Origin: an uncultured Gemmatimonadota bacterium
GTDB lineage: Bacteria > ARS69
DNA length: 64,000 nucleotides
Direction: 5' to 3'
Assembly (NCBI GenBank): GCA_964571855.1
Contig: CAZNDO010000018.1
Location: 3,886-67,885, forward strand
The notes below the pieces were generated by a model. The model had not been told where the DNA came from and ran no database searches. It worked only from the letters and a program-made list of their open reading frames with translations. Below are positions 4,899 through 41,550 of this stretch, in pieces (the stretch's first letter is position 1; each line of letters opens with the position of its first letter). The position numbers were made by a program, and so were the translations under genes.

Positions 4899-5122
4899 AA
4901 CGGCACAGCATACATTACCCCGTGGGCGGTGAGCACCTCGGTCGGCCCCCTCGACCCCGTCCGCGCCCCCGGAGCCCCGGCACCACGCCGGGAGTCCACC
5001 CTCCTCCCGCCGGCACGGGACGGGCAGGGCGGAGCCGCCGGGAGCGCCCGGAGGTCGATCGGCGCCGGATCATCCGCGAGGGGACGAAAACCCCCTCCAG
5101 AAGCCAGCCCGAATCACCGATT

Positions 5123-5146
5123 GGAGACTGAAAAGTCTCCTTTCAT
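5123..5146 (+). promoter_or_regulatory. AT-rich perfect hairpin (GGAGACT-gaaa-AGTCTCC followed by TTTCAT) in the 5' leader about 60 nt upstream of the cytochrome lipoprotein gene. It is a candidate attenuator or operator.
   Basis: The 7-bp perfect inverted repeat was read directly. It lies in an AT-rich island that is conspicuous in a 72% GC background, and there is no upstream plus-strand gene for it to terminate. Confidence 0.4.
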
Positions 5147-5203
5147 CCGCGCCCGGGTGGGGGCGCGGGAGACCGGGAACCGGGAGGTTCCGGAGGTGCG
5201 CCG

Positions 5204-6667
5204 ATGAGAGTCCACGCCGGATGGATGCTCGTGCCCGCCGTCGCCTTGCTCGCGGCGGGTTGCTCGGATGACGAGAAGATCGTCTACCGCGATCGCGACC
5301 TGTTCAACCCGCCGCCTGACGCCGCGTCCGGCTTCCTGGGCTACTACGACTCCGCCACGAAGACCACGACCTGCGGGAACTGCCACGCGGGCGAGCAGGC
5401 GGACTGGGAGGCCACGAAGCACGCCGACGCGTACGACACGCTCGTGCAGTCCGGCCACGCGCAGGACTTCTGCTTCGAGTGCCACACGGTGAGCGACGCC
5501 GGCAACGACGTGGACACGCCGGCCGGCTGGAACGTGGTGCAGGACGGCGCGTACCACGACGTGCAGTGCGAGAGCTGTCACGGGCCGGGCAACGAGCACG
5601 TGCAGGATCCGGGCGCGTCCCAGCCCATCGCCAGCCTGGCGGTGGCGGACGACCTCTCCACCGGCTGCGCGGAGTGCCACTCCGGCACGCACCATCCCTT
5701 CGCCGAGGAGTGGCTGCAGTCCGGGCACTCCATGGTGATCGAGAGCGCGGCGGGGAATGCCTCGTGCCAGGGCTGCCACCGCGGCCAGGGCGTGCTGGCA
5801 GCGTGGGGCGTGGACGCCACGTACCTCGAGGAGGACAGCTCCGAGCACCTCCCGGTGACCTGCGGCGTCTGCCACGATCCGCACGACAAGACCTACGAGC
5901 ACCAGCTCCGCTTCCCCGTGAACACGCGGGATCCGGAGCTGCATCTGTGCGCCCGCTGCCACGACCGTCGCAGCGTGCCGAGCGCCACGTCCTCGCACGG
6001 GCTCGAGCCGCACTCCCCGGAGACGGCGCTGCTCTTGGGCGAAGCGGGCTGGTTCCCGCCGGGCGCGGACATCAACCCGGGCCAGATCGTGGCGTCGCAC
6101 GGCTCGGACGGGAACCCGAAGCTCTGCGCCACTTGCCATGTGGCGCGCTTCACGGTGGCCGACGCCGTCACGGGTGCGTTCACGTTCCAGGCCACCGGGC
6201 ACCTGTTCACGGCCATCCCGTGCGTGGACGGCTCGGGCATCCCGACCACGGGAGACTGCGACTACAACACCACGGACCGTTCGTTCGCGGCCTGCGCCAC
6301 CGCCGGCTGCCACACGAGCGAAACGTCGGCGGCGGCGGCGCTCACGGGGGCCACGTTCGGCATCCAGGCGTGGTCGGACGATCTGCTCGCGCTGCTCACG
6401 ACCGTGGATCCGAACCTGGACGCGGCGGGCGGAGAGATCGATCCCACGCTCACCACGTTCACCGTGGCCGAGGGAGCGTTCTTCAATTACAACCTCGCGA
6501 ACCACGGCGGCGGCATCCACGCGGCCACCGTGCACAACCCGTTCCTCATCGAGGCGCTGCTCGTCGCGAGCATCGCCGAGGTCGAGGACACGTACGGGCT
6601 GTCCGCCGGGCGCGGCGTGGACTACCGCGCGGAGCTGGACCGCATCCTGGGCCGCTCGGGACGGTAG
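5204..6667 (+). CDS. Multihaem c-type cytochrome lipoprotein (at least 8 CxxCH plus one Cx4CH)
   Basis: A signal peptide with lipobox (LLAAGC) is present. Haem motifs are CGNCH, CFECH, CESCH, CAECH, CQGCH, CGVCH, CARCH, CATCH and CATAGCH. An RBS-like GGAGG lies upstream. Confidence 0.85.
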   Translation: MRVHAGWMLVPAVALLAAGCSDDEKIVYRDRDLFNPPPDAASGFLGYYDSATKTTTCGNCHAGEQADWEATKHADAYDTLVQSGHAQDFCFECHTVSDAGNDVDTPAGWNVVQDGAYHDVQCESCHGPGNEHVQDPGASQPIASLAVADDLSTGCAECHSGTHHPFAEEWLQSGHSMVIESAAGNASCQGCHRGQGVLAAWGVDATYLEEDSSEHLPVTCGVCHDPHDKTYEHQLRFPVNTRDPELHLCARCHDRRSVPSATSSHGLEPHSPETALLLGEAGWFPPGADINPGQIVASHGSDGNPKLCATCHVARFTVADAVTGAFTFQATGHLFTAIPCVDGSGIPTTGDCDYNTTDRSFAACATAGCHTSETSAAAALTGATFGIQAWSDDLLALLTTVDPNLDAAGGEIDPTLTTFTVAEGAFFNYNLANHGGGIHAATVHNPFLIEALLVASIAEVEDTYGLSAGRGVDYRAELDRILGRSGR

Positions 6668-6670
6668 GCC

Positions 6671-8194
6671 GTGTTCCTCCCCGTCGCGACGATCCGGCTC
6701 GTCGCGGCCGCACTGCTGTTGACCGCCGTCGGGGCGGGACCCGCGCACGCGGGTCCCGCCTGGCGGCTCCGCGTGGACGCCGCCGCGCGCACCTTCGCGT
6801 TCCGCGGCGTGGAGCTGGACAGCATCCGCACCACCCAGGCCGTCCGCGGCCCCTTCGGCGGGCTGCAGACGCCGGACGGCTACGCCGTCACGTGCCCGCC
6901 CGGATCCGCGTGGTGCTACTTCTTCCGCGCGGGGGACGAGGAGCGCACGAGCCCCGTCACCGGGACCATGGACCTGCGTGCGTGGGATCTCGGGCCGCGC
7001 GGCCTGTCCGTGCGCGTGCGCGCGCGCGGCGCGGGAGCATTCGACCGCCCGTCCGCGTGGGCGGACACGCGCCCCGCGGTGCGCTTCCAGGAGGCGTACG
7101 CGGACTGGACGCGCCGCGGCGTCGGTGTGCGCGCGGGACGGCTGCGGCAGATCACGCGGCTCGGATCGTCCGGCTGGGACGGCGGCCGCGCCGAGGCGCG
7201 CGCGCTGGACGGCCTCGTGCGCGCGAGCGCATGGGGTGGCTGGGGCTTGGCCGGGCCCACGGACCTTCCGGCCACGAACGGGTCGCTGGATCCCTTGGAG
7301 GAGTTCACGCCGCGGCAGCGGCCGGTGCTGTTCGGCGCGGAGCTGGGCGCCGGACGGCGCGCGATGGACGCCCGCATGCTGTACGAGCGGCTCGTGGACA
7401 CGCGCGCGGACGACTTCGTGTCCGAGCGCATCGGCGCCGAGCTCGCCGTGCGTCCCGGCGGCGGCGTCACGCTCGCCACCGGCTCGGACTGGGATCTCGC
7501 CGCGGGCGCGTGGGGCAACGCCGAGGCGTCGCTGCGCTGGCAGCCGCCGCGCGGCATGGAGAACGTGACCACGGGCGTGCGCCGCTACCGTCCGCGGTTC
7601 GACCTCTGGTACGTCTGGACCGCATTCAGCCCCGTGGGCTACACGGCGTACTTCATGGAAGGCGCCGCGCGTCCCGACCCGCGCCTTCGCGTGTCGGTGC
7701 GCGGCGAGACGTGGGACTTCGAGGGAACGGACGCGGACTCGCCGCTGTTCCGCGGCGAGAGCGACGGCTGGCGCTGGAGCGCCGAGGCCGCATGGGATGC
7801 GGACCGGCACTGGCGCCTGCGCGCGCGCGCCCACGAGGAGTTCGGCCCCGGCGCCGCCGCCACGAGCTTCGACGGGGAAGCCGGCTGGGAGCACGGCGCG
7901 TGGGACGTGGCGGTTTCCGCCGGCTGGCTGGAGCGGCCGCTGGAGCTGCGGTACAACGATGTCACGCTCACGTCGTACGGCGTGCGCGGGAGCTGGGCGG
8001 CGCGGCCCGAAGTGTCGGTGCACGCCGAGGTGCGCGCGTTCGACGAGGAGCGGGACCGCCCGGACGCCGCGGCCGTGGACGGCACGCACGTGCGCGCGTC
8101 CGTCGGCATGTCGTTCCTGCTGGGCTCGTCCTCGCCGCGCGGCACGCTGCCCGACGCGGTGCGCGCGATCCCGCCGCGGAGGGTCACGCCGTGA
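6671..8194 (+). CDS. Secreted putative outer-membrane beta-barrel protein, a possible porin partner of the flanking cytochromes
   Basis: It has an N-terminal signal peptide (AALLLTAVGAGPAHAG) and alternating hydrophobic/polar stretches rich in W, Y, R and D. The start lies 4 nt after the upstream stop and its own stop overlaps the next start (GTGA). Confidence 0.55.
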   Translation: MFLPVATIRLVAAALLLTAVGAGPAHAGPAWRLRVDAAARTFAFRGVELDSIRTTQAVRGPFGGLQTPDGYAVTCPPGSAWCYFFRAGDEERTSPVTGTMDLRAWDLGPRGLSVRVRARGAGAFDRPSAWADTRPAVRFQEAYADWTRRGVGVRAGRLRQITRLGSSGWDGGRAEARALDGLVRASAWGGWGLAGPTDLPATNGSLDPLEEFTPRQRPVLFGAELGAGRRAMDARMLYERLVDTRADDFVSERIGAELAVRPGGGVTLATGSDWDLAAGAWGNAEASLRWQPPRGMENVTTGVRRYRPRFDLWYVWTAFSPVGYTAYFMEGAARPDPRLRVSVRGETWDFEGTDADSPLFRGESDGWRWSAEAAWDADRHWRLRARAHEEFGPGAAATSFDGEAGWEHGAWDVAVSAGWLERPLELRYNDVTLTSYGVRGSWAARPEVSVHAEVRAFDEERDRPDAAAVDGTHVRASVGMSFLLGSSSPRGTLPDAVRAIPPRRVTP

Positions 8195-9249
8195 GGCGAA
8201 GCGTCGTCGTGCTCGCGCTGCTCGCGTTCGCCGCCGCCGGGAACGCGCGGGCCCAGGAGATCGCGGCGCCGGCCGCGCCCATCGCGGGCAGCCACCTGAC
8301 GTTCGACCACGCGCTGCACGAGGACATCGCGTGCGAGGACTGCCACGGCGACGCGCCGGCCGCCGGAGTCCCGGTGCAGCGACCCGATCCCGCGGTGTGC
8401 ATGGACTGCCATGGCGACGGGAACGACCATCTCGAGCAGGCCGCGTCCGAGTGCGCCACGTGCCATCGCCCGTTGGCCCAGGCCACGCGGCTCACCGCCG
8501 CGGAGGTCGCCGCGTTGCCGGCGCCGCGGTCCCACGCCGATCCGTCGTTCCTGGAGGGCGGCCACGGGCGCGCGGCATGCCCGGCCGACGGCTCCGGGAC
8601 GCCGGCCAGCTGCGGCGTGTGCCACACGCAGCAGAGTTGCGAGGTCTGCCACGTGGCCACGCCCGAGGTGGCCTCGGGACTGCTCCGGGCCGGCGCGGCG
8701 CACCTCGCCGGGCCGCCGTTCGCGCGCAAGCGGCCGGCCTCGCACGAGGACGGGTGGGCGCGCGCGCACGGGCACGAGGCCTCGGCGGATCCGCGCTCCT
8801 GCGCCGGCTGCCACGCGCAGGAGGACTGCCTGCACTGCCACCTCCCGGACGCGGCCGCCGCGCCGGGGAACGCGGTGCACCCGCCCGATTTCCTCGCGCG
8901 GCATCCGGCCGCCGCCTGGTCGCGGGAGACCTCCTGTGCGGACTGCCACGATCCGCGCGGCTTCTGCGCGTCCTGCCACGAGGAGGCGGGGCTCACCGCC
9001 CAGCGTCCCAGCCTGGGCTCCGGCTTCCACGACGGCGCGAACTTCCTGCTGGGCCACGGCGATGCGGCCCGCCGCGGCCTGGACACGTGCGTGACCTGCC
9101 ACGACGAGAACGACTGCCTCAAGTGCCACTCCGACCGCACCGGCCGCGGCTTCAGCCCGCACGGCCCGGACTTCGACGCGGAGCGGCTCTCCCGCACGGC
9201 TGCACAGATGTGCACGGTGTGCCACGGCGGGGTCATCCCGAAGCGCTGA
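8191..9249 (+). CDS. Dodecahaem c-type cytochrome (12 CxxCH in ~350 aa), periplasmic
   Basis: The GTG start overlaps the upstream stop. The signal peptide is MRRSVVVLALLAFAAAGNARAQE. There are twelve CxxCH motifs (CEDCH, CMDCH, CATCH, CGVCH, CEVCH, CAGCH, CLHCH, CADCH, CASCH, CVTCH, CLKCH, CTVCH). Confidence 0.8.
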   Translation: MRRSVVVLALLAFAAAGNARAQEIAAPAAPIAGSHLTFDHALHEDIACEDCHGDAPAAGVPVQRPDPAVCMDCHGDGNDHLEQAASECATCHRPLAQATRLTAAEVAALPAPRSHADPSFLEGGHGRAACPADGSGTPASCGVCHTQQSCEVCHVATPEVASGLLRAGAAHLAGPPFARKRPASHEDGWARAHGHEASADPRSCAGCHAQEDCLHCHLPDAAAAPGNAVHPPDFLARHPAAAWSRETSCADCHDPRGFCASCHEEAGLTAQRPSLGSGFHDGANFLLGHGDAARRGLDTCVTCHDENDCLKCHSDRTGRGFSPHGPDFDAERLSRTAAQMCTVCHGGVIPKR

Positions 9250-9267
9250 TCGCATCCGCCGGACGCA

Positions 9268-9298
9268 AGGAGCGCCCCGGCCCGCGAGGGACCGGGGC
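9268..9298. terminator. GC-rich hairpin (GCGCCCCGG-N11-CCGGGGCGC) between convergent genes; a possible bidirectional terminator
   Basis: A perfect 9-bp inverted repeat was read from the sequence. There is no clear U-tract. Confidence 0.3.
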
Positions 9299-9325
9299 GC
9301 TCGTGGGTCCGGGCCGCGGCGCGTC

Positions 9326-11878
9326 TCAGATCACGCGCACGGCGAGCCGCGCGGAGTCCGCGGCGCCGCCGAACGGCGCGCCCTCCACGAACAGGTGGTA
9401 GACGCCCGGCTTCCTCAGGAACGCCGCCTGCTCCGGCGTGAGCCGGACGGTGAACGTGCGCGACTGTCCCGCGGCCAGCCGGTCCTCGGCGCGGCCGCGC
9501 AGCTTGTCGAGCACCCCGGCCTTCCCCAGCACGATCTCGTTCCAGCGCGAGTCGAGCACGCGGAGCCGCAGCTGCCCGTCGCCGAGCTTCGGCGCCGTCG
9601 CGATGCGCACGTCCGCGCCCGTGCCGTTCGTCACGGTCACGGTCAGGGTGAGCGTCCCGCCCGCGCGCAGCTCGGTGCGGTCCGCCGACACGGTCACGGT
9701 GACGCCGGACGCATCCTTGTCCTCCGGGGAGCGGTACCGGCGGTCCACCGCGGACCTCTCGGCCTCTTCCGGGGAGGCCGCCTCGTCGCGCAGGACGCCC
9801 AGGCTGCGCCCGGCGTGGCCGCGCGGATCGGGGCGACCGAGCGGAGCGACGGACGCGGGCGGCGCCGCCATGGACTTCATCATCTCGGCGCCCGCCCTCT
9901 CCTGCCGGCCCTCGAACGAGCCCGCCTCGCCGAACACGCCCTCGAAGCTCACGCCCTCGGGCATCTCCACGGGGACGCGCACGCGCTTCGGCCGCCCGTC
10001 GGACACGACCAGCTTCTCCTCCACCGCCACGAAGCTCGTGTACGGCGTGACCAGGTGGTGCGCCAGCCCGATGGACTCGATCTCGGCGCGAACCGCCGCG
10101 TTCGTCTGCGAGCGGTCGGAGCGCTGGAGGTCGGCGATGCGCGCCCGAGCCCACAGCGTGCCCACGGCCGGGTTGCCGGACGGGCCGCGCGGCAGGTCCA
10201 GCTCCACGCGCGTCTTCCACGGTCGGCCGGCGATGCGGCCGCGCACCTCGAGCCACCCGTCACCGCGCCCGTCGTAGCGCGCGTGCACCGCAAGGGGCTG
10301 CCCGCCGAACACGTCGGGCACCTGCTCGGGGTAGCGGTCCGTCACGTCCACGCCGTGCCACACGAGCTCCACGTCCGTGAGGTACGGGTTGCGGATGCGC
10401 TCGTAGAAGCGGTCCACGGACTGCGCCATCGAGCTGCCGCCGAGGAAGTACTGCGCCTCGCCGCGTCCCTCCAGCGCCAGGCCGTCCAGCAGCTCGCGGT
10501 TCACGGAGCTGCCCACGCCGAACGAGAAGAGCCGCGCGTTGCCGATGGCGGCGCGCACGGCGTCCAGGATCTCGGCCTCGTTCCCGATGTAGCCGTCGGT
10601 GAGGAACATCACGATGCGCAGCCGCTTCGGATCGTGCGGGAAGTCCAGCGCGGCCTTGATCCCCTCGATCATCATCGTGCCGCCCTCGCCCTGGAGCTGC
10701 TCCAGGTACGCGAGGCCGCGCTTGACGTTCGCCGGCGTGGCCTCGATCGGCGCGCGGGCGAGGCCGGACGCGCGCTCGGAGAAGCGGATGATCTGGAACG
10801 TGTCGCCCGGGTTCACGTTCGTCAGCGCGCGCCGCACCAGCCCCTTCGCCGCGGCGATCGGCTCGCCGGACATGGAGCCGGAGCAGTCCAGCACGAAGAT
10901 CATCTCCTTCGCGGTCAGGTCCGCCGCGCGGAGGTCCAGCTTCGGGTGCACCAGCACGGAGACGTAGCCGTCGGTGCCGTCGTGGTACGCCAGCACGCCC
11001 GTGTCGGCGCCGGCGCCCTTCGCCTTCGCCTTCAGCACGAAGTCCTTGTTCGGGCGCGTGTCCAGCGGGTGCAGCGTGATCACCGCGCGGCGCGGTCCCT
11101 TGCGGCGCACGTCCACGCGATGCGTGGGGCTGGACCAGTCCTCCACCGGGATGCCGGCGTCCCAGTCCACCGTGATCTCGAGGTCGTGGCGGGACTGCAC
11201 GTGCGGCGGCAGGAACGGGGGGTTCTCGAGGCGCGAAGGGTCGGGGTCGTCCGGGCGCGGAGGCGGCGCCAGGAAGTCGCCGCCCGCCGGCACGATGTCG
11301 CCGCGCGTGCCCGGCGGGTTGAACCGCGGACCCACGACGGTGGGGAGCACCATCTCCCAGGAGCCGGCGTCGTACGGGAGCTGCTCCACGTAGGTCAGCG
11401 TCACGTCGATCTCGTTCCCGGGGAGGATGTTGGCCACGGACTGCGTGAACACGTTCGTGCGCTCCTGCTCCAGCAGCGCGGCCACGTGGCCGGCGTTGCG
11501 CGCGTCCTCGTACAGGCGCCGCGCCTCCGCGCGCCGCTCGATGATGCCGGCGATCGTGCGGTCGCCCACGCGCATCTCGAACTCGTTCACCGCGGAGTCC
11601 ACCGGCAGCGGGAACACGTAGACGGCCTCGATGGTCTCGTCGCTCGGGTTGGCGAACGTCTGGGTCACGCGCACGCGCGCCACCGGGCCGGAGACGTCGG
11701 CGTGCACCTTCGTGTGCTTCAGCGGGAAGTCGACGACGCGGCCGTCGATCTCGGCGCGCAGGCACCCCGTGCCGGGAAGGGGAGGCGGCTCGGGCGGCGT
11801 GGCGGGGGCGGCGGCCGGCGCGGCCGCGAGGCCGATCCCGACCAGCAGCGCCCGCGGGAAATCGCGCAGGGCAGGCAT
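9326..11878 (-). CDS. Secreted VIT-domain plus von Willebrand factor type A (vWA) domain protein
   Basis: The signal peptide is MPALRDFPRALLVGIGLAAAPAAAP. A vWA MIDAS motif is present (VLDCSGSM ... TDG). An N-terminal VIT-like region and a long C-terminal region follow. The start is chosen at the internal ATG that begins the signal peptide. Confidence 0.75.
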   Translation of the reverse strand: MPALRDFPRALLVGIGLAAAPAAAPATPPEPPPLPGTGCLRAEIDGRVVDFPLKHTKVHADVSGPVARVRVTQTFANPSDETIEAVYVFPLPVDSAVNEFEMRVGDRTIAGIIERRAEARRLYEDARNAGHVAALLEQERTNVFTQSVANILPGNEIDVTLTYVEQLPYDAGSWEMVLPTVVGPRFNPPGTRGDIVPAGGDFLAPPPRPDDPDPSRLENPPFLPPHVQSRHDLEITVDWDAGIPVEDWSSPTHRVDVRRKGPRRAVITLHPLDTRPNKDFVLKAKAKGAGADTGVLAYHDGTDGYVSVLVHPKLDLRAADLTAKEMIFVLDCSGSMSGEPIAAAKGLVRRALTNVNPGDTFQIIRFSERASGLARAPIEATPANVKRGLAYLEQLQGEGGTMMIEGIKAALDFPHDPKRLRIVMFLTDGYIGNEAEILDAVRAAIGNARLFSFGVGSSVNRELLDGLALEGRGEAQYFLGGSSMAQSVDRFYERIRNPYLTDVELVWHGVDVTDRYPEQVPDVFGGQPLAVHARYDGRGDGWLEVRGRIAGRPWKTRVELDLPRGPSGNPAVGTLWARARIADLQRSDRSQTNAAVRAEIESIGLAHHLVTPYTSFVAVEEKLVVSDGRPKRVRVPVEMPEGVSFEGVFGEAGSFEGRQERAGAEMMKSMAAPPASVAPLGRPDPRGHAGRSLGVLRDEAASPEEAERSAVDRRYRSPEDKDASGVTVTVSADRTELRAGGTLTLTVTVTNGTGADVRIATAPKLGDGQLRLRVLDSRWNEIVLGKAGVLDKLRGRAEDRLAAGQSRTFTVRLTPEQAAFLRKPGVYHLFVEGAPFGGAADSARLAVRVI

Positions 11879-12061
11879 GGCGGCTCCTTCGAGGGGTCCG
11901 GGCCCCGCGGGGAGCCTCCTCCCCGCGCGCGCCCGTGACCGGTTCGAAGGGGATACCTCGAAGGCCCCGCGCCTATTCCGGGCTCTGGGGGGAATGACGG
12001 CAAACGCCATCCGGGCCTAGACTTGCGGCGTGGAATGCCGCGAGCCCTTCCGGGGTAGGGA

Positions 12062-12628
12062 GTGAGGATGCGCGAACTCGCCAGGGATCCCGCGGAAGAG
12101 CCCACGGACGGCGAGCTCGTGCGGCTCGCGAAGCGCGGGGACCGGCACGCGTTCGGCCGCCTCGTGCGCCGGCACCAGCCGCGCGTGTTCGCGCTGGGCC
12201 TGCGCTGGCTGCGCAACGCGGACGACGCGGACGACCTGGTGCAGGAGACGTTCGTGCGCGCATGGCAGGGGCTGGCCCGGTTCGACGAGTCGCGGCCGTT
12301 CGCCCCGTGGGTGGTCACGATCGCGGTGAACCGCGCGAAGACGCGGCTGGCGCGGGCGCGGCCGCTGGACGAGGTGGACGAGTCCGTGCCGTGGACCGGA
12401 CCGTCGCCGGAGGAGGGCGCGGAGCGAGCGCTGCTCGCCCGCGCGGTGCACGCGGCGGTGGACGCGCTGCCGGAGGAGCAGCGGATCGTGCTGCACCTGC
12501 GGGCCGTGGAGGACCTGTCGTACCGCGAGATCGCGGAGGCGCTGGGGATCCCGGCGGGAACGGTGATGTCGAGACTGTCGCGGGCGCGGGAAGCGCTGCG
12601 GAAGTCGCTCGGAGGGGCTGCGCCATGA
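12062..12628 (+). CDS. ECF-family RNA polymerase sigma-70 factor
   Basis: Sigma-70 region 2 (DLVQETFVRAWQGLARF) and region 4 HTH (LSYREIAEALGIPAGTVMSRLSRAREAL) are present, at ~185 aa. Confidence 0.9.
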   Translation: MRMRELARDPAEEPTDGELVRLAKRGDRHAFGRLVRRHQPRVFALGLRWLRNADDADDLVQETFVRAWQGLARFDESRPFAPWVVTIAVNRAKTRLARARPLDEVDESVPWTGPSPEEGAERALLARAVHAAVDALPEEQRIVLHLRAVEDLSYREIAEALGIPAGTVMSRLSRAREALRKSLGGAAP

Positions 12629-13806
12629 AGACCGACTGCCGGGACATCGAGGCGCTGCTTTCGCCCTACGCGGACGGCGAGCTGGACGCCGCGGACGCCG
12701 CGCGGGTGGAGAGCCACCTGGCGGAGTGCGCTGCGTGCCGGGAGACGCTGGCCGCGTGGCGCGAGGCCGAGGCCGCGTTCGCTTCCATGCGGGTGGAACG
12801 TTCCGATGTGGAGTGGGAGCGCCTGGCGCGCCGCGTGGACGATGCGATCGACGCGTCCGGGACGGCGGAGGCCGGCGGCCGCGTGGCGGCGGCGCCGCAG
12901 GCCGCGGGCGCACGGACGCCGGAGCGGCGCCGCGTGCACCCCTGGCTCTGGGGAAGCAGCGGCGTGCTCATGGCCGCGGCGTTGGTGCTGCTCTTCTGGC
13001 CCTGGATCACCTCGGAGGACGGCGACATGCAGACCCGGACGATGCTCCCGCCCGCGAGCCGGCCGCCCGCGGTGGCCGGGAACGAGGGCGCGGAACGCGA
13101 CGACGCGCGTGCCGGTGCGCCGGCGGAGCAGGGCGGCGCCGGCGCGGACATCCCCGTGGCGCAAGGCGACGCGAAGGCGCCGGGCACGCGTGGCGTGGAC
13201 ATCCGCCGCGTGGCGATCGAGCAGGAGGCGAAGGCGAAGGACGAGCTGAGCGCGTCGCTGTCGAAGGAGGCGCGGGACGAATCGGGGGCGCCGGGGACGC
13301 CGCCGGCAGAGGCAACGAGGGCCCTGGGGTACCTGACGTCGCCCGCCCCGGCCCCGAAGAGCGCGGAAGAGATGGCGCCGGCGCCGGTCGAGGCGAGGAA
13401 GTCGCTGGCCGTCCCGCCACCGGCCTCCCGCGCGCGGGACGGGGACAAGGCCGAGTCGGCGTTCCGGCAGGAGCCGGACGTCCTGCTCGAGGACGCCGTC
13501 CGGAGCGCGCCGGACTCCGCGTTCGTTCCCGTGCAGCGCGCGGCGCAGCAGGCGCTGGACTCCGGCGAGCCCGCCGCGCTGGAGCGCGCCGCGTCGACCC
13601 TCGCGGCGTTCACGCTCGCCTGGCCGGAGGATCCGCGTCGTGCGGACGCGCTCGCGCAGCGCGTGCGCGTCCTCGCGGCGCTCGCCGTCCACGATCCGGG
13701 GCGGTGGTGCGCGGGGCTGGCCGAGGCGCGCACGCAGTGGCGCGAGGCCGCGGGCGACGCCGCACCGTTCCCGGAGCCCGAACCGGCCGAAGCGGTGTGT
13801 CCGTGA
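12625..13806 (+). CDS. Anti-sigma factor (zinc-finger ChrR/RsiW-like N-terminus, single TM, low-complexity periplasmic domain)
   Basis: The start ATG overlaps the sigma-factor stop (ATGA). The anti-sigma zinc motif is present (HLAECAACRETL). There is one TM segment (LWGSSGVLMAAALVLLFWPWI). Confidence 0.75.
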   Translation: MKTDCRDIEALLSPYADGELDAADAARVESHLAECAACRETLAAWREAEAAFASMRVERSDVEWERLARRVDDAIDASGTAEAGGRVAAAPQAAGARTPERRRVHPWLWGSSGVLMAAALVLLFWPWITSEDGDMQTRTMLPPASRPPAVAGNEGAERDDARAGAPAEQGGAGADIPVAQGDAKAPGTRGVDIRRVAIEQEAKAKDELSASLSKEARDESGAPGTPPAEATRALGYLTSPAPAPKSAEEMAPAPVEARKSLAVPPPASRARDGDKAESAFRQEPDVLLEDAVRSAPDSAFVPVQRAAQQALDSGEPAALERAASTLAAFTLAWPEDPRRADALAQRVRVLAALAVHDPGRWCAGLAEARTQWREAAGDAAPFPEPEPAEAVCP

Positions 13807-14798
13807 GGCCGCCCGCGATCCTCGCCGCGCTTGTCGTGCTCGCCGCCGGCGATACGCGCGCGCAGATCCGCACCCAGGACTTCGACGGACCGGACGGCTC
13901 CCCCTGGCCGGCGCCGTGGTTCGCGGGGACGCCGCACGTGACGTTGCAGGACCTTTCCGGCAACCGCGGCCGCATCAACGGCGACCCGCAGCACGTGGCC
14001 CGCATGATCCTCCCCGGCTTCGCCGAGACCGACGTGGAGGTGGAGATCACGGTGGAGTTCGAGGACGTGGCCTTCCAGGGCTTCGGCCTGTACGTGCGCC
14101 AGAACGGCGGCTATCTGCAGGACACCATCCCCTTCGGCCAGGGCTACGCCACGTTCCTCAAGGGCAACTGGGCGTGGCCGGAGGATCTGGGACTCTGGAC
14201 CGAGACGAACGGCGTGGAGACCCAGTACCTCTTCGGGCTCAACCCGATCGCCGGCGGACTGCAGAACGGCGTGCCGTACCGCGTGCGCTTCCGTGTGGAG
14301 CAGGACACTCCGGCGCAGACGCTCGTGCAGGCGAAGGTGTGGGAGGTGGGTGATCCGGAGCCCGTCGCGTGGACGATCGAGGCGCTGAACGGGGAGGCTG
14401 TGCTGCAGAACACGGCCGGGAGCTTCGCCATCGACCTCTACAACCACTCCGGCACCGGGCACCTGTTCGTGGACGATCTGGTGATCCACCGGCTACCGCT
14501 CGGGACGTCGGCGCCGGTGGCCGCCGCGGCGGCGCCGTCCCTCTCCGTGCACCCGAACCCGATGACCACCTCCTGCCGCGTCTCCTTCGCGGGCGGCGGC
14601 GGCGCCCCGGTCACGATGCGGGTGTTCGACGTGGCCGGCCGCCTCCGCGCGACCCGCCGCGCCGCGCCGGGCGAGAGCGCACTCACGTGGACCGGCACCG
14701 ATGACTCGGGCGCCCCGCTCCCGGGCGGCGTGTACTTCCTGCGGGCCGGCTCGGGAAACGGCGCCTCGCGATCGGAACGGGTCGTCCTGCGCCGGTGA
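13803..14798 (+). CDS. Secreted protein with a C-terminal ~80-aa sorting-type beta-sandwich domain (FlgD-Ig-like / T9SS-CTD-like)
   Basis: The GTG start overlaps the anti-sigma stop (GTGA). A signal peptide is present (AILAALVVLAAGDTRAQ). The C-terminus reads SLSVHPNPMTTSCRVSF...GVYFLRAGSG..RSERVVLRR, the same tail type as four other proteins in this window. Confidence 0.6.
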   Translation: MRPPAILAALVVLAAGDTRAQIRTQDFDGPDGSPWPAPWFAGTPHVTLQDLSGNRGRINGDPQHVARMILPGFAETDVEVEITVEFEDVAFQGFGLYVRQNGGYLQDTIPFGQGYATFLKGNWAWPEDLGLWTETNGVETQYLFGLNPIAGGLQNGVPYRVRFRVEQDTPAQTLVQAKVWEVGDPEPVAWTIEALNGEAVLQNTAGSFAIDLYNHSGTGHLFVDDLVIHRLPLGTSAPVAAAAAPSLSVHPNPMTTSCRVSFAGGGGAPVTMRVFDVAGRLRATRRAAPGESALTWTGTDDSGAPLPGGVYFLRAGSGNGASRSERVVLRR

Positions 14799-32443: not shown

Positions 32444-33985
32444 CTAGAACCGCCACCCCGCCGACGCGTGGATCTGCGTGGTCTTCTCCGCCGCCCCCCG
32501 GCTCCGCTCCACGGACGCCAGCACCAGCCAGGACCGCCCGACCGCGACGTCGGTGTCCAGGGACACCCAGGTCAGGCGCGTGTCGGCCCCCGTGGCCGCT
32601 GCGTGCTCCCGCCGCTCGCCGAGCGACGCTCCCACGTGCGCCCGGTTCGTCACGTTCATCCCCACGGTCCCCGACAGCAGCCAGCCGTCCGTGCGATCGG
32701 AGGTGTACCGCGTTGTCCGCGTGCTGCCCGTCAGGCTGCGGAAGCGCGCGGTGCCGGCGCGACCGCGCAGCGTGTACGCGTTCGTGCCGCCGGAGGAACC
32801 GCCGCCTGCGCGGCGGAAGTCCGCCGCCACGGACGCGCGTCGCGCCGGGCGGTACTCCAGGCCGCTCCAGTAGCCGTTGCGGTAGGCGTCGTCGAAGTCC
32901 GTCTCCGGGGTCACGAGGTTGCGGTACAGCCGCACGTTGCGCCGCGTGTCCGCCCCGCCGTCCACGGACCACTTGTCCGCGAAGCGCCAGCGGGCGTTCA
33001 CGAGCGCGCTCGTCGCCGTGACCGCGTCCTCCCCCGCCTTCCGCTTCCACCCGCGGGCCAGGTCCACTTCCTGCACGGCGAACGCCTCCAGCTTCCCGCC
33101 CGACATCCGGCCCTGCAGCGCGAAGTACTCGCGGTCGATCGTGGACCCCGCGTACGAGCCCACGGCCGCCAGCGTGAGCCGCCACAGGCCGGCCCGTCCG
33201 CCGCTGCCGCCGCGCTCGATCCACACGCCGTGCTCGCGGATGTCCGTGGACGTCCCGAAGGAGCGCGGGTCCGGCTGGTACCCGAAGAACCCGCCGGTCC
33301 CCCAGCGCTCGCCGCGCCACTCGGCCATGACGCCGTCGAACACGCCGACCGAACTGAGCGACGTGGACACCTGCCGCCCGAGGGCCGCGTGCGCGCCGCC
33401 GGTGGGGCGGCCGTACTCCGCGAGCAGCCGGTACACGCGCGTGCGCCCGGTGTCCTCGTCCGGCCGGTAGGTGCGGCGCGCGCGCGCGTCCACGGACACG
33501 CGCCACTCCCCCGCCACGCGTCCGTCCGCGCGCACGTCCACGCCCGGCTCGGAGTACCCGCGATCCAGGGACGACCCGTCCACGAGCCCCAGGTACCGCA
33601 CGTCGATGCGGCCGCGGAGCGGTCGGTCCCGCCGCGACGTCCGCGGCTTCGCCTCGGGCTTCGGCGCCTCGTCCACCACGGGCTCGCCCGCGCGCACGGG
33701 GCGGAAGGTGACGGCATCGCCCACGCGGATCTCCGCGTCCGGCTCCACGCGCCGGCAGGACGCGCGTTTGGACGACAGCGCGGTCACCTCGAGCCACGTC
33801 ACGAGCAGTCCCTCGCGGCGCACCTCGACCACCTCGCCCTTCGCCAGACCGGCCTCCGTGCCGGCGTCCACGTACACCGTGGTGGTCGTGACATAGCTGA
33901 CGGCGGCGCGAACGGTCTCCGCCGCGCGGGACGGGACCGCCGTGGCGAGCAGCACGGCGAGGGCGAGAGCGACGGCGCGCGGCAT
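32444..33985 (-). CDS. Outer-membrane beta-barrel protein (513 aa) translationally coupled to the upstream multihaem cytochromes; a putative porin component of a cytochrome conduit
   Basis: The signal peptide is MPRAVALALAVLLATAVPSRAAE. There are abundant amphipathic beta-strands rich in R, Y, W and G. The C-terminus is ...SAGWRF with a terminal Phe, the OMP beta-signal. The start ATG overlaps the upstream stop (ATGA). Confidence 0.7.
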   Translation of the reverse strand: MPRAVALALAVLLATAVPSRAAETVRAAVSYVTTTTVYVDAGTEAGLAKGEVVEVRREGLLVTWLEVTALSSKRASCRRVEPDAEIRVGDAVTFRPVRAGEPVVDEAPKPEAKPRTSRRDRPLRGRIDVRYLGLVDGSSLDRGYSEPGVDVRADGRVAGEWRVSVDARARRTYRPDEDTGRTRVYRLLAEYGRPTGGAHAALGRQVSTSLSSVGVFDGVMAEWRGERWGTGGFFGYQPDPRSFGTSTDIREHGVWIERGGSGGRAGLWRLTLAAVGSYAGSTIDREYFALQGRMSGGKLEAFAVQEVDLARGWKRKAGEDAVTATSALVNARWRFADKWSVDGGADTRRNVRLYRNLVTPETDFDDAYRNGYWSGLEYRPARRASVAADFRRAGGGSSGGTNAYTLRGRAGTARFRSLTGSTRTTRYTSDRTDGWLLSGTVGMNVTNRAHVGASLGERREHAAATGADTRLTWVSLDTDVAVGRSWLVLASVERSRGAAEKTTQIHASAGWRF

Positions 33986-35271
33986 CAGTGCCTCCCGTCC
34001 GGATGGCAGCGGTAGCAGGCCGCGCTGTTGTACGCGTACCCGGGTTCGCCGCGGTGCTTGTTGTCCACCTCGCTGCGATTCGAGTGCTCGTGGCACAGGA
34101 TGCACTCGAACACGGCGTAGTTCGCGGGCGCCACGTGGCAGTCCGCGCAAGCGGACCACTTCCCGCGATGCGTGCCGCTGTTGATCGGGAAGTAGCGGCC
34201 GTCGTGGTCGAACGTGGCGCCGTACCAGCCGGACGTGCCGTGGCAGTCGGCGCAGGACGTGGGGAACCCCGTGCCGGCGTGCGGCGGGTTCGTCGTGGCG
34301 TCGTACTCGCCGCGATGGCAGCCCACGCACTCGGGGGAGAGCGGTCCGATGGGTCCCGTGCCGTGGCAGGCCGCGCACTCGGCGCCGGCGTGCCGCCCCG
34401 TGAGCGCGAACCCGGTGACCGCATGGTCGAACGACGCGCCGTCCCAGCTCGCCGTCCCGTGGCAGCGTGCGCAGTCCGTGGGAAAGCCCACGGAGGCATG
34501 CGCCGGCGCCGTCGTGGCGTCGTAGTCCGCGCGGTGGCAGCTCACGCACTCCGCGGACACGCGCGCCGGCGGACCCTCGCCGTGGCACGACGCGCACTGC
34601 ACGCCGATGTGCGCACCGGTGAGCGGGAACGCGGTGGCGGAGTGGTCGAACGTGCCGCCCGCGAAGGACGACGTGGAGTGGCACCGCGCACAGTCCGTGG
34701 AGTACCCGCCCGCCACGTGGTCCGGGTTCTTCGCCGCCTGGTAATCCGCCAGGTGGCAGCCCTCGCACGTCTCCGCCGTCCCCGCGAAGCGCATGGCGCT
34801 CCCCGCCTGCGGCCGGTGGCAGGCCGCGCAGTCCGTGGTCAGGTGCGCGCCGGTCAGCGGGAACCGGCCGAGGCGATGCTGCCGCACGGCCTCCGCGCGA
34901 TCGATGAAGTCCCGCGTGGTGTGGCAGCGCGCGCAATCGATCCCCATCTCGCCCCGGTGCACGTCCTGGTGGCAGTCCGCGCAGCGGCTCCCGGACGTCT
35001 CCGCGAACTCCAGCGACGTGTGGCACAGGAGGCACGGCACGTCCTTGTGCGAGCCGTCCAGCGGAAAGCCGAACCGCGAGTGGTCGAACTCCGCGGTCGG
35101 CTTCGCCGGCGTCCACGACTCAGCCCGGTGGCACAGCGCGCAGTCCTGCTTGAAGGAACCGTGCGGGTTCGGCGTGGCCACCTGCGGCGTGACGGCCGCG
35201 GACGGCTCCGCGCCGCGGGCCGCCACGGGCAGGATCGCCATGACGAGAAGCACGGGCAGATGACGGAGCAT
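33985..35271 (-). CDS. Multihaem c-type cytochrome (16 CxxCH in 428 aa), secreted
   Basis: The signal peptide is MLRHLPVLLVMAILPVAARGA. Sixteen CxxCH motifs were counted. It is a paralog of the upstream 25-haem gene, and about 200 aa of the N-terminus are nearly identical. The start overlaps the upstream stop. Confidence 0.85.
   Translation of the reverse strand: MLRHLPVLLVMAILPVAARGAEPSAAVTPQVATPNPHGSFKQDCALCHRAESWTPAKPTAEFDHSRFGFPLDGSHKDVPCLLCHTSLEFAETSGSRCADCHQDVHRGEMGIDCARCHTTRDFIDRAEAVRQHRLGRFPLTGAHLTTDCAACHRPQAGSAMRFAGTAETCEGCHLADYQAAKNPDHVAGGYSTDCARCHSTSSFAGGTFDHSATAFPLTGAHIGVQCASCHGEGPPARVSAECVSCHRADYDATTAPAHASVGFPTDCARCHGTASWDGASFDHAVTGFALTGRHAGAECAACHGTGPIGPLSPECVGCHRGEYDATTNPPHAGTGFPTSCADCHGTSGWYGATFDHDGRYFPINSGTHRGKWSACADCHVAPANYAVFECILCHEHSNRSEVDNKHRGEPGYAYNSAACYRCHPDGRH
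34600..35190 (-). repeat. About 590-bp segment roughly 90% identical to 36535-37125. It is the shared N-terminal tetra/octahaem module of the 16-haem and 25-haem paralogous cytochrome genes.
   Basis: The two DNA stretches align by eye nearly base for base (for example cttcgccggcgtccacgactc[a/g]gcccggtggca[c/a]agcgcgcagtcctgcttgaaggaaccgtgcgggttcggcgtggccacctgcgg). Confidence 0.8.
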
Positions 35272-39031: not shown

Positions 39032-40451
39032 CGGCTTTCGCCTCCTCGAGCGGAATGGCCTTCGTGACCATGCGGATGCCCGCCTTCTCCAGGAACGCGG
39101 CCGGCGGCTCGCCGCCGATGCGCACGATCACGTCGTCGTTGGGGAGGGTGAGGACCTTGCCGCCGGCCTCGATCTCCACGGCGTCCGCGCGGATGGCCTT
39201 CACCGCGCTTTCGCGCAGGATCCGCACCTTCCCGTTGCGCTCGGCCTCCGCCAGCTTCTGCCGGTTGCGCTCCTTCGCGCGGTCGAAGTCCGCCTTGCGG
39301 TGGCTGAGCACGACCTCGGTGCCCTCCTGGTTCGCGAGGCCCAGCGCGGACTCCAGCGCGCTGTCCCCGCCGCCGACCACGAGCACCTTCCGGCCCTTGA
39401 ATTCCTCCATCTCCACGATGTCGTAGAAGACCTTCTCGGTCTCCTCCCCCGGCACGCCGAGGCGGCGCGGCGTGCCGCGCCGGCCGAGCGCCAGGATCAC
39501 GCGGCGCGCGCGCACCTCGAACCCCTGGCCGCGCACGGCGATGGACGCCCCTTCGCGCGCCACCTCCTCCACGCGCCGGTTCGACAGCACCGTGAGGCCG
39601 CTCTGCTCCACCATCGCCTCCCACACGGCGAGGAGCGTCTCCTTCGAGGCGTCCGCCACCCAAAGGTCCCCGTACAGCGGCACCTTGATCGGCTCCGCGA
39701 GCAGCAGCTTGTGGCGCGGGTACTTGCGGATCGTGTCGGCCAGGCTGCCCTGATCCAGGATCACGAAGTCCAGTCCCGCCTTGCGGGCGGTGAGCGCGGC
39801 GCTCAGCCCGGCCGGGCCGGAGCCCACGATCGCGAGGTCGTGCACGCTGCCGCACGCGCCGGTCCCGCACGCCTGCAGCTCGCGCGCCGCGTTCTCCGCG
39901 GCCACGCGGCCCTCGTTGATGGCGTTCTTGATGAGCCCGCGCCCGCCGAGCTCGCCCACGATGTACACGCCCGGCACGTTCGACTGGAAGTCCGCCTTCA
40001 GATCCGGCACGGTCACGCGGTGCACGGCCGCGCCCGTGGCGATCACGATGCCGCCCACCGGGCACGCCTCCGCGCACTTCCCGTGTCCCTTGCAGCGATC
40101 CTTCTCCACGATGGCCAGCTTGCCCTCGAGGCGGATGGCGCCGGGCTCGGGGCACACGGGGACGCAACAGCCGCAGCCCACGCACACGTCCGCGCGGACA
40201 ATGGCGTGCGGGGCCGCATCGTCGGCCGGCGCGGCGGCCGGGTCCGGGGCGGCCTCCACCTCGGCGGCGGCGATCTCGAACACCTGCATCGGGACGTCGC
40301 AACCGGGGCAGCGCGAGGCGCCCGCGGGGACCTCGCCGCCGCACCGGGGGCACGCGGTGCGCGGCCCGCCGCCCTTGCGGCGGATCTGCCACGCCATGAG
40401 CGCCGCGGTGAGGACGGCGAAGGCGACCGTCGCGAGGACGCCGGAGTTCAT
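39018..40451 (-). CDS. Membrane-anchored iron-sulfur flavoprotein: N-terminal TM helix, zinc-ribbon, 2x[4Fe-4S] ferredoxin domain and a thioredoxin-reductase-like FAD/NAD(P)-binding oxidoreductase domain
   Basis: The TM segment is VLATVAFAVLTAALMAWQI and the zinc-ribbon is CPRCGG..CPGC. Ferredoxin motifs CVGCGCCVPVCP and CKGHGKCAEACP are present. There are two Rossmann GxGxxG motifs (AIVGSGPAGL, VLVVGGGDSAL). The start ATG overlaps the upstream stop. Confidence 0.8.
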   Translation of the reverse strand: MNSGVLATVAFAVLTAALMAWQIRRKGGGPRTACPRCGGEVPAGASRCPGCDVPMQVFEIAAAEVEAAPDPAAAPADDAAPHAIVRADVCVGCGCCVPVCPEPGAIRLEGKLAIVEKDRCKGHGKCAEACPVGGIVIATGAAVHRVTVPDLKADFQSNVPGVYIVGELGGRGLIKNAINEGRVAAENAARELQACGTGACGSVHDLAIVGSGPAGLSAALTARKAGLDFVILDQGSLADTIRKYPRHKLLLAEPIKVPLYGDLWVADASKETLLAVWEAMVEQSGLTVLSNRRVEEVAREGASIAVRGQGFEVRARRVILALGRRGTPRRLGVPGEETEKVFYDIVEMEEFKGRKVLVVGGGDSALESALGLANQEGTEVVLSHRKADFDRAKERNRQKLAEAERNGKVRILRESAVKAIRADAVEIEAGGKVLTLPNDDVIVRIGGEPPAAFLEKAGIRMVTKAIPLEEAKAGAPA

Positions 40452-41404: not shown

Positions 41405-41550
41405 GCCCGTCGTCCCGTCCTCCCGTCGATGCAGGAACGTCCTCCCGCGTGTGCATTCTGCGACCACGCGGTGCGCAAAGAGGGCCCGGTCCCCCCCTTC
41501 GCGCCGGGCGGGATGTGGTGCCGCGACTCCGGAATTCCCCGAAAAGGGGG

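What the first reader, a model, noticed from the sequence alone, without database searches (positions are those of the whole stretch)
5204..9249. Second, smaller cytochrome / OM-protein / cytochrome module with overlapping start-stop junctions
A lipoprotein multihaem cytochrome (at least 8 haems plus an unusual Cx4CH), a 507-aa secreted beta-rich protein and a periplasmic 12-haem cytochrome are arranged like the lipoprotein-cytochrome / porin / periplasmic-cytochrome triads of porin-cytochrome complexes. The junctions are a 4-nt gap and a GTGA overlap. Together with the large operon, the window carries two independent candidate conduits, which suggests a lifestyle centred on extracellular or insoluble electron acceptors or donors.
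Basis: partly seen in the sequence, partly recalled or inferred. Interest (0 to 1): 0.7.

Follow-up and report, generated by a model that had tools for sequence, protein, structure and literature searches.

The report
Gemmatimonadota-type porin–cytochrome electron conduit operon
Three tightly packed genes encode a lipid-anchored nine-haem cytochrome, a large empty outer-membrane barrel and a twelve-haem "wire" cytochrome; together they look like an uncharacterised conduit for moving respiratory electrons across the outer membrane, and relatives occur in hundreds of Gemmatimonadota species.

Summary
Positions 5204-9249 (+) carry three real genes under purifying selection (dN/dS about 0.1):
- a lipoprotein cytochrome with 8 CxxCH plus a family-invariant Cx4CH;
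- a 507-aa secreted protein;
- a secreted 12-CxxCH cytochrome.

The middle protein models confidently as a plug-less barrel of about 22 strands. It has no sequence link to MtrB/PioB. Its family occurs in 543 species genomes, and all 80 listed are Gemmatimonadota-type or unclassified MAGs. It is nearly always flanked by multihaem cytochromes, and its stop overlaps the start of a haem-rich downstream gene by 4 nt in 74 of 86 loci.

Most relatives (47 of 59) also carry an inner-membrane NrfH-like 18-19-haem cytochrome. The window holds a reduced three-gene version without it.

The porin-cytochrome reading is supported in silico. Topology, direction of electron flow and substrate are untested. I rate it a new variant of a known kind, of moderate interest.

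The parts
5123..5140 (+). Hairpin in the 5' leader of the operon (GGAGACU-GAAA-AGUCUCC). Possibly regulatory; role unknown.
   Evidence: dG -14.2 kcal/mol, z -3.5. The stem is identical in L091, with only a loop substitution. No Rfam match.
5192..5196 (+). GGAGG Shine-Dalgarno-like motif, 7 nt upstream of the cyt1 ATG.
   Evidence: Read directly from the sequence. Invariant in L091.
5204..6667 (+). cyt1: a lipoprotein nonahaem c-type cytochrome of the OcwA/OmhA type. It has 8 CxxCH plus Cx4CH, a lipobox Cys20 and the HH163/164 motif. Proposed outer (terminal) redox partner.
6671..8194 (+). Outer-membrane beta-barrel of about 22 strands, without a plug, with a Sec signal peptide and a conserved C-terminal periplasmic tail. 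Proposed sheath for the haem wire.
8191..9249 (+). cyt3: a secreted 12-haem cytochrome built of di-haem repeats. Its GTG start overlaps the barrel's stop (GTGA). Proposed periplasm-to-barrel haem wire.
   Evidence: 12 CxxCH. 12 conserved non-motif His. Orthologous to the downstream 16-haem cytochromes but lacking two 2-haem inserts. A 4-nt overlap with a haem-rich downstream gene is present in 74 of 86 loci. Profile against PDB: Hmc 2e-11, ActA-like 1e-9, MtrF 1.4e-5, MtrA not significant. dN/dS 0.12.
9259..9312 (.). GC-rich stem-loop between the convergent cyt3 and VIT/VWA genes. Probable 3' end of the operon.
   Evidence: dG -49.6 kcal/mol, z -4.9, 0 of 200 shuffles as stable. It has no T-run, so the consensus terminator scan does not call it.

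Best explanation
The three genes form one operon for an outer-membrane-spanning porin-cytochrome electron conduit, of a family that seems to be found mainly in Gemmatimonadota.

Proposed mechanism (inferred):
1. The 12-haem cytochrome is exported by Sec. It is made in 1:1 coupling with the barrel and threads into the lumen of the roughly 22-strand barrel. There it forms an insulated chain of closely spaced bis-His haems across the outer membrane, as MtrA does in MtrB.
2. The OcwA-like nonahaem lipoprotein is anchored to the outer membrane and docks on the end of that wire. It serves as the terminal oxidoreductase, exchanging electrons with an extracellular or insoluble partner such as Fe(III)/Mn(IV) minerals, humic matter or shuttles. 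One haem possibly has an open coordination site, marked by the conserved His-His motif.
3. In most relatives, a two-helix inner-membrane NrfH/NapC-like 18-19-haem cytochrome in the same operon links the conduit to the quinol pool. The window's operon lacks this gene, so electrons must enter from a component encoded elsewhere.

Shown here: gene structure, selection, folds, family relationships and synteny.
Inferred: assembly, topology, direction of electron flow and substrate.
For: - The barrel fold is predicted with high confidence. It has no plug, and its short turns alternate with long loops in the pattern expected of an outer-membrane protein.
- cyt3 has about 28 residues per haem, and 12 conserved distal His for 12 haems. 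That is typical of a pure electron wire.
- The barrel stop and the start of a haem-rich downstream gene overlap by 4 nt in 74 of 86 loci.
- Cytochrome genes flank the barrel gene in essentially all loci.
- 47 of 59 loci with full flanks hold the set lipoprotein cyt1 / NrfH-like inner-membrane cytochrome / barrel / wire. Every role of an inner-membrane-to-surface path is filled exactly once.
- cyt1 has a family-invariant lipobox Cys. Its closest solved relatives are the two known cell-surface Fe(III) reductases, OcwA and OmhA (PMC6703420, PMC9250108).
- All three genes are under purifying selection.
Against: - There is no experimental evidence for any member of the family. No paper on it was found.
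- Whether cyt1 faces outwards or into the periplasm cannot be determined from sequence.
- The window's operon has no quinol-oxidising partner, and none was detected in the 64 kb.
- cyt1 is far more conserved (54-67% identity) than the barrel (32-46% outside the two closest relatives). It belongs to the NrfA/c554 superfamily and keeps a His-His active-site-like motif. That pattern would also fit an enzyme.
- The strand count (22) is read from the DSSP string, not from coordinates.
Confidence: 0.62

Rival explanations
1. The hardware is the same but electrons flow inwards. The conduit would take electrons from extracellular Fe(II), Mn(II), reduced humics, a cathode or a partner cell, and deliver them to periplasmic carriers, as proposed for MtoAB/PioAB.
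For: Porin-cytochrome conduits and NrfH/CymA-type quinol dehydrogenases are reversible in principle (established knowledge of Mto/Pio and CymA). The window's operon lacks the quinol-linked NrfH-like gene that relatives have. Some related loci lie next to Rieske/cytochrome b and mono-haem c genes.
Against: The closest solved relatives of cyt1 are reductases of Fe(III)-respiring bacteria. 80% of relatives couple the module to an NrfH/NapC-like cytochrome, and proteins of that type usually oxidise quinol. Sequence says nothing decisive about direction.
Confidence: 0.2
2. cyt1 is a periplasm-facing lipoprotein enzyme of the NrfA/ONR/MccA/c554 superfamily that reduces or oxidises a soluble small molecule, such as nitrite, NO, hydroxylamine or a sulfur oxyanion. 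cyt3 would be its electron donor and the barrel a substrate or product channel.
Against: - There is no CxxCK haem motif.
- The second His-His site of OcwA is reduced to a single His followed by Ser/Ala.
- OcwA's nitrite turnover is only about 1 per minute (PMC6703420).
- cyt1 scores higher to OcwA/OmhA than to any enzyme.
- A plug-less barrel of about 22 strands, translationally coupled to a 12-16-haem wire, is excessive for small-molecule diffusion.
- The relatives add an 18-19-haem inner-membrane cytochrome, so each module holds at least 40 haems.
Confidence: 0.13
3. The co-location is incidental. The 507-aa protein would be an ordinary porin or unrelated outer-membrane protein that merely sits between two periplasmic cytochromes.
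For: The barrel's best structural matches are generic porins and TonB-receptor barrels. A few family members hit generic OMP or porin Pfam models.
Against: Cytochrome genes flank the barrel gene in almost all of the fetched loci, which come from 543 species genomes encoding a barrel relative. A conserved 4-nt overlap joins it to a haem-rich gene in 74 of 86 loci. The same triad recurs in a distant sister subfamily (L088). No cytochrome-free context was seen.
Confidence: 0.03

Closest known systems
MtrCAB / MtoAB / PioAB porin-cytochrome complexes (Shewanella, Sideroxydans, Rhodopseudomonas; structure 6R2Q)
   Different: - There is no sequence homology. Pfam and NCBIfam scans gave no MtrB_PioB hit, and the barrel profile found nothing among PDB sequences.
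- The barrel has about 22 strands rather than 26.
- The wire has 12-16 haems of c3/c7/Hmc type, and MtrA scores E 0.92.
- The lipoprotein is OcwA-like, not an MtrC/OmcA staggered-cross cytochrome.
- The gene order is lipoprotein-barrel-wire.
OcwA (Thermincola potens, 6I5B) and OmhA (Carboxydothermus ferrireducens, 6QVM): cell-surface terminal Fe(III) reductases of Gram-positive bacteria
   Same: - Both have nine haem sites.
- Both have a c554-like N-terminal module and C-terminal long helices.
- The His-His motif after haem 4's motif is conserved, aligned to OcwA HH281/282.
   Different: - cyt1 is a lipoprotein of a diderm, encoded beside an outer-membrane barrel.
- Its last haem uses Cx4CH.
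- OcwA's second His-His site (380/381) is a single His followed by Ser/Ala.
- There are enough invariant His for eight bis-His haems, so probably one open-site haem at most, where OcwA has two plus a His-Met haem (PMC6703420).
Geobacter Pcc (OmbB-OmaB-OmcB) and the porin-MHC clusters described in Acidobacteriota and Verrucomicrobiota (bioRxiv 10.64898/2026.05.27.727921, which reports 'OwcA-like' MHCs)
   Same: These are independent, sequence-divergent triads of barrel, periplasmic MHC and outer lipoprotein or extracellular MHC. The preprint likewise reports OcwA-like cytochromes in porin clusters of diderms.
   Different: The phylum and the protein families differ. The only Geobacter-type model that scored at all (GSU2203 decahaem) reached 29 bits against a 325-bit cutoff. 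I could not compare directly with the preprint's sequences or with OmbB, because neither was available in the tools.
NrfH/NapC/CymA and ImcH/CbcL inner-membrane quinol dehydrogenases. This applies to the extra gene of the related four-gene modules, not to the window.
   Same: The 18-19-haem protein of the relatives has N-terminal transmembrane helices followed by an NrfH-like FCxxCH...CHxCH segment (TIGR03153 E 5e-9 to 1e-8).
   Different: The scores are far below the NrfH cutoff. The protein carries about 14 extra haems and two transmembrane helices. It is absent from the window's operon.

Membership tests
Porin-cytochrome complex (architectural class; Richardson 2012, Shi 2014) | An outer-membrane beta-barrel large enough to house a cytochrome, without a plug domain | tested here: met
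   The AF2 model has pLDDT 83 and pTM 0.78. It shows about 22 strands spanning residues 30-485 and no globular insert. It aligns over about 350 residues with 22-strand TonB-receptor barrels. The strand count is read from the DSSP string.
Porin-cytochrome complex (architectural class) | An adjacent gene for a Sec-exported, haem-dense periplasmic multihaem cytochrome | tested here: met
   cyt3 has a signal peptide and 12 CxxCH in 352 aa, and its start overlaps the barrel's stop as GTGA. The overlap with a haem-rich downstream gene is conserved in 74 of 86 loci.
Porin-cytochrome complex (architectural class) | An outer-membrane lipoprotein multihaem cytochrome in the same cluster | tested here: met
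   The lipobox LLAAG|C is present, and Cys20 is invariant in 53 homologues. Surface exposure was not tested.
Porin-cytochrome complex (architectural class) | Physical complex formation and electron transfer across the outer membrane | not testable with these tools
   This needs biochemistry, or at least a multimer structure prediction. Only single-chain prediction was available.
MtrB/PioB family (Pfam MtrB_PioB, the NCBIfam counterpart, PDB 6R2Q_B) | A sequence match to the family model, or to MtrB itself | tested here: not met
MtrA/DmsE decahaem family (TIGR03508; PDB 6R2Q_A) | A sequence match, and ten haems in two pentahaem modules | tested here: not met
   cyt3 has no NCBIfam hit. The A3 profile against 6r2q_A gives E 0.92. 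cyt3 has 12 haems arranged as di-haem repeats.
OcwA/OmhA clade of the NrfA/c554 multihaem superfamily | The overall fold and haem-motif order of OcwA (c554-like N-terminal module, NrfA-like C-terminal module with long helices) | tested here: met
OcwA/OmhA clade | Nine (OcwA) haem-binding sites | tested here: met
   There are 8 CxxCH plus C364-x4-C369-H370, all invariant. One relative (L002) has a ninth CxxCH in place of the Cx4CH.
OcwA/OmhA clade | Two His-His motifs over two penta-coordinate haems (HH281/282 and HH380/381) | tested here: inconclusive
   The first motif is conserved: H163 is invariant and H164 is at least 90% conserved, aligned to OcwA 'SHH..EW..GH'. At the second site only H270 is kept, followed by Ser/Ala. 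Actual haem coordination cannot be derived without haem-containing coordinates.
OcwA/OmhA clade | Cell-surface location and Fe(III)-oxide reductase activity | not testable with these tools
   This requires localisation and enzymology.
NrfA-type cytochrome c nitrite reductase | A catalytic haem bound by CxxCK | tested here: not met
   cyt1 and cyt3 have no CxxCK motif (regex). NrfA ranks below OcwA and OmhA structurally.
   There is no Pfam or NCBIfam hit for either cytochrome. NapB chains score E 0.17-0.56 against the cyt3 profile and 0.26 against the cyt1 profile.

The most novel reading that the evidence does not exclude
This would be a fourth, independently evolved class of outer-membrane electron conduit, found mainly in Gemmatimonadota. 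A new barrel family of about 22 strands sheaths a modular di-haem-repeat wire of variable length (9-16 haems). The terminal reductase is the OcwA/OmhA type, so far characterised only on Gram-positive cell walls. If so, members of a major soil phylum usually regarded as aerobic heterotrophs would commonly be able to respire, or take electrons from, minerals and humic matter.
Probability: 0.45. Interest if true: 0.72.

Novelty: new variant of a known kind. Interest (0 to 1): 0.58.

Why it matters
Gemmatimonadota are among the most abundant soil and sediment phyla, but few are cultured and their anaerobic physiology is poorly known.

A conserved module that runs from the inner membrane to the cell surface, present in 543 species-level genomes, would point to widespread extracellular electron transfer in this phylum. 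That bears on iron, manganese and humic redox cycling in soils.

It would also show that the OcwA-type terminal reductase, described on Gram-positive cell walls, is used on diderm outer membranes with its own barrel family. This gives a third structural solution, besides Mtr and Pcc, for comparative and bioelectrochemical work.

The variation in haem number through insertion and loss of di-haem units offers a natural series for studying the length of haem wires.

Tried and rejected
- MtrB/PioB/OmbB homology of the barrel. Pfam, NCBIfam, a PDB sequence-profile search and a per-member Pfam scan were all negative.
- A paralogue of the barrel in the window's second cytochrome cluster. tblastn and hhalign were negative.
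- An NrfH-like quinol dehydrogenase elsewhere in the window. Only haem-motif-level matches appeared.
- A sigma-70 promoter or intrinsic terminator. The consensus scan found none, which is expected at 73% GC.
- An Rfam family in the 5' leader. None was found.
- AFDB Foldseek search for the barrel. The library was unavailable.
- Literature on a Gemmatimonadota porin-cytochrome or OcwA-like system. Nothing specific was found. The only Gemmatimonadota link is a single horizontally acquired MtrCAB in 'Gemmatimonas sp. SG8_38_2' (PMC8805035).
- 'All nine cyt1 haems are bis-His'. I considered this first, from the nine invariant extra His. I then weakened it, because H163/H164 align with OcwA's non-ligating His-His pocket.
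- A complex (multimer) prediction. The tools do not allow it.


Full report
**1. Observation**

The window has 73% GC, so spurious ORFs abound. Codon-position GC identifies three consecutive + strand genes with GC3 of 0.92-0.94.

- cyt1, 5204-6667, 487 aa. It starts MRVHAGWMLVPAVALLAAG|C, which is a lipobox. It has 8 CxxCH motifs plus CATAGCH at residues 364-370.
- The middle gene, 6671-8194, 507 aa. It has a Sec signal peptide ending AHA|GP and no haem motif.
- cyt3, 8191-9249, 352 aa. Its signal peptide ends ARA|QE, and it has 12 CxxCH motifs.

A relative that is 93% identical at the protein level (L091, GCA_964471155.1) has the same three genes. NCBI called them at the same lengths, and the flanks are the same (AMP-binding enzyme and MatE). 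Nei-Gojobori dN/dS between the two is 0.10, 0.12 and 0.12. All three are therefore real genes under purifying selection.

The unit is self-contained. A MatE gene diverges upstream. Downstream, a VIT/VWA gene converges behind a stem-loop of -49.6 kcal/mol (z -4.9).

The window matches an NCBI contig of 74.5 kb. The closest named homologues of its SHMT protein (76-88% identity) come from Gemmatimonadota MAGs.

**2. The middle protein is a large outer-membrane barrel of an uncharacterised family**

It matches no Pfam or NCBIfam family. A word-indexed search found 91 homologues, every one labelled 'hypothetical' or left unnamed. The named ones come from Gemmatimonadales or Gemmatimonadota MAGs and one Candidatus Eiseniibacteriota MAG.

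An exhaustive profile search of 1.84 billion representative proteins gave only 548 hits at E<=1e-3. A scan of one genome per GTDB species found 543 genomes that encode a relative. All 80 listed are Gemmatimonadota-type or unclassified 'bacterium' MAGs, and none is more than 44% identical to the window.

AlphaFold2 with a 56-sequence alignment gave pLDDT 83 and pTM 0.78. The model is beta-strand from residue 30 to 485 and has no plug.

I read the DSSP string as 22 strands, treating 81-93 and 95-105 as one bulged strand. On that reading:
- every even connection is a short turn of 6 residues or fewer;
- all long connections (27, 13, 26, 17, 14, 8 and 11 residues) fall on the odd, extracellular side.

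This is the canonical topology of an outer-membrane protein. The count comes from the string rather than from coordinates, so 24 strands is not excluded.

**3. Synteny**

In 86 loci holding a barrel homologue, multihaem cytochrome genes flank it almost without exception. The barrel's stop codon overlaps the start of a haem-rich downstream gene by 4 nt (ATGA, GTGA or TTGA) in 74 of 86 loci. That argues for translational coupling and a stoichiometric complex.

Among the 59 loci with adequate flanks, 47 have a four-gene module:
- a cyt1-like lipoprotein (8 CxxCH plus Cx4CH, about 490 aa);
- an 18-19-haem cytochrome of about 650 aa;
- the barrel;
- a 16-haem cytochrome of about 480 aa.

The 18-19-haem protein has two N-terminal transmembrane helices. 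These are followed by W-x-YMQHDN-x-FC-x-x-CH...CH-x-CHQQS, which matches the first 60 positions of the NrfH model (E 5e-9 to 1e-8, well below the cutoff). It therefore looks like an inner-membrane NapC/NrfH-type quinol dehydrogenase extended by a long haem chain.

The window and L091 lack this gene, and no equivalent was found in the 64 kb. The same reduced triad recurs in a distant sister subfamily (L088/L089). An Eiseniibacteriota locus has only cyt1 plus barrel, next to a divergent cluster that holds an NrfH-family cytochrome and a cytochrome b.

**4. cyt1 is an OcwA-type nonahaem lipoprotein**

More than 1,900 homologues were found. The top ones are 54-67% identical to the window protein, against 32-46% for the barrel outside its two closest relatives.

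In 53 aligned sequences the following are invariant:
- the lipobox Cys20;
- all eight CxxCH motifs;
- C364-x4-C369-H370;
- nine further His residues (73, 132, 163, 175, 227, 270, 299, 333, 444).

Against PDB sequences, the profile hits OcwA (6i5b) at E 1.8e-15, OmhA (6qvm) at 2.6e-10 and cytochrome c554 at 3.8e-5.

The AF2 model (pLDDT 80) gives these structural matches:

| Search | Target | Score |
|---|---|---|
| Foldseek | OcwA | E 3.6e-7, 449 columns |

OcwA and OmhA are the cell-surface terminal Fe(III)-oxide reductases of the Gram-positive bacteria Thermincola potens and Carboxydothermus ferrireducens. In OcwA, haems 2 and 5 are penta-coordinate, each beneath a His-His motif, and the protein has weak nitrite and hydroxylamine activity (PMC6703420, PMC9250108).

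cyt1 keeps the first His-His motif. THH163/164PFAEEW..GH aligns with OcwA SHH..PEW..GH. At the second site it keeps only one His (H270, followed by Ser/Ala). I infer at most one open-site haem and eight bis-His haems. This is not shown.

There is no CxxCK motif, and neither NrfB nor NapB is a significant match.

**5. cyt3 is a modular haem wire**

Aligned with 72 downstream orthologues, cyt3 shows 12 conserved non-motif His for its 12 haems. That implies bis-His ligation throughout. The density is about 28 residues per haem.

The protein is built of repeats of the form H-x7-8-H-x10-CxxCH-x4-5-CxxCH. Compared with the 16-haem orthologues (about 50% identity over the C-terminal 290 residues) it lacks two 2-haem inserts. 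Across the family the haem count ranges over 9, 11, 12, 14 and 16.

The profile relates it to Desulfovibrio Hmc (2e-11), ActA-like pentahaem subunits (1e-9), MtrF (1.4e-5) and c7 cytochromes. MtrA is not significant (E 0.92).

**6. Interpretation**

There is a lipoprotein cytochrome whose nearest solved relatives are surface Fe(III) reductases. There is a plug-less barrel wide enough for a cytochrome. And there is a translationally coupled, haem-dense, all-bis-His cytochrome.

The four-gene relatives add an inner-membrane quinol-type entry point. Each role in a path from inner membrane to surface is then filled exactly once. This is my main argument for placing cyt1 outside and cyt3 inside the barrel. 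That placement is an inference.

The following remain unshown:
- assembly of the complex;
- which side of the membrane cyt1 faces;
- the direction of electron flow (a rival at about 0.2);
- the substrate.

The enzyme rival (about 0.13) is kept alive by three things: cyt1's strong conservation, its membership of the NrfA/c554 superfamily, and the retained His-His pocket.

**7. Comparison with what is known, and novelty**

The system works like MtrCAB or Pcc, but it belongs to none of those protein families; the tests were run and were negative. I found no paper describing it.

A 2026 preprint reports analogous, sequence-divergent porin-MHC clusters in Acidobacteriota and Verrucomicrobiota, including 'OwcA-like' cytochromes. 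The idea of OcwA-like proteins in diderm conduits is therefore emerging, though not for this phylum or this barrel family.

I class it as a new variant of a known kind. It is of moderate interest, mainly for the ecology of Gemmatimonadota and for the comparative biology of electron conduits.

**8. The second cluster**

Positions 32444-41467 (-) encode:
- a membrane-anchored 4Fe-4S flavoprotein;
- cytochromes of 20, 25 and 16 haems;
- a 513-aa secreted protein ending ...AGWRF, a classic outer-membrane beta-signal.

The 513-aa protein is unrelated to the 507-aa barrel.

Noticed in passing
window 32444-41467 (- strand): A second cytochrome cluster. It encodes a 338-aa protein with no Pfam match, a TM-anchored 4Fe-4S + Pyr_redox_3 flavoprotein (39018-40463), cytochromes of 20, 25 and 16 haems, and a 513-aa secreted protein (32444-33985) ending ...AGWRF, a classic OMP beta-signal. 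The 513-aa protein is unrelated in sequence to the 507-aa barrel.
   Followed up: partly
window 5070-5203 (5' leader of cyt1): Two hairpins lie upstream of cyt1. The stronger one is 5123-5140, GGAGACU-GAAA-AGUCUCC (dG -14.2, z -3.5). It is conserved in L091 with only a loop substitution. The MatE-cyt1 intergenic region is 87% identical between the two genomes, whereas about 28% of synonymous sites in the genes differ. That suggests constraint and a possible regulatory element. There is no Rfam match.
   Followed up: partly
L001, L005, L006 and 44 other loci (gene just upstream of the barrel): Most relatives carry an 18-19-haem cytochrome with two N-terminal TM helices and an NrfH/NapC-like first haem segment. 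It looks like a quinol dehydrogenase fused to a periplasm-spanning haem chain. It is absent from the window's operon.
   Followed up: partly
window 8191-9249 versus L001-L086 downstream cytochromes: The haem number of the wire cytochrome varies (9, 11, 12, 14, 16) through gain or loss of di-haem repeat units of about 50-65 aa. The window's protein lacks two such units.
   Followed up: yes
window 8125-8194 (barrel C-terminus) and residues 75/82: The barrel does not end in an aromatic beta-signal. After the last strand it carries a conserved tail of about 20 residues (consensus LPPAxRRxP). Loop 1 holds two nearly invariant Cys (75 and 82) that probably form a disulfide. The tail may be a docking element for a periplasmic partner.
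   Followed up: no
window 6665-6673 versus L091 9462-9469: cyt1 and the barrel gene are in the same reading frame in the window, separated only by TAG-GCC. In the 93%-identical relative the spacer is 2 nt (TAG-CG-GTG), so the shared frame is not conserved and readthrough fusion is unlikely to matter.
   Followed up: yes
window 9326-14798: Next to the operon lie a convergent secreted VIT/VWA protein (about 850-894 aa), then an ECF sigma factor (12119-12628), a zf-HC2 anti-sigma factor (12625-13806) and a secreted protein with a weak, sub-threshold FlgD_ig match (E 2.9e-4) (13797-14798). No link to the cytochrome operon was established.
   Followed up: no
L002 (Candidatus Eiseniibacteriota, JBQTGV010000002.1): Here the cyt1 + barrel pair has no downstream wire gene. 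It sits back-to-back with a cluster encoding an NrfH-family cytochrome, a Ni_hydr_CYTB cytochrome b and more multihaem cytochromes, and lies near a NiFe hydrogenase/Hdr-like gene set. This hints at a hydrogen-linked electron route.
   Followed up: no
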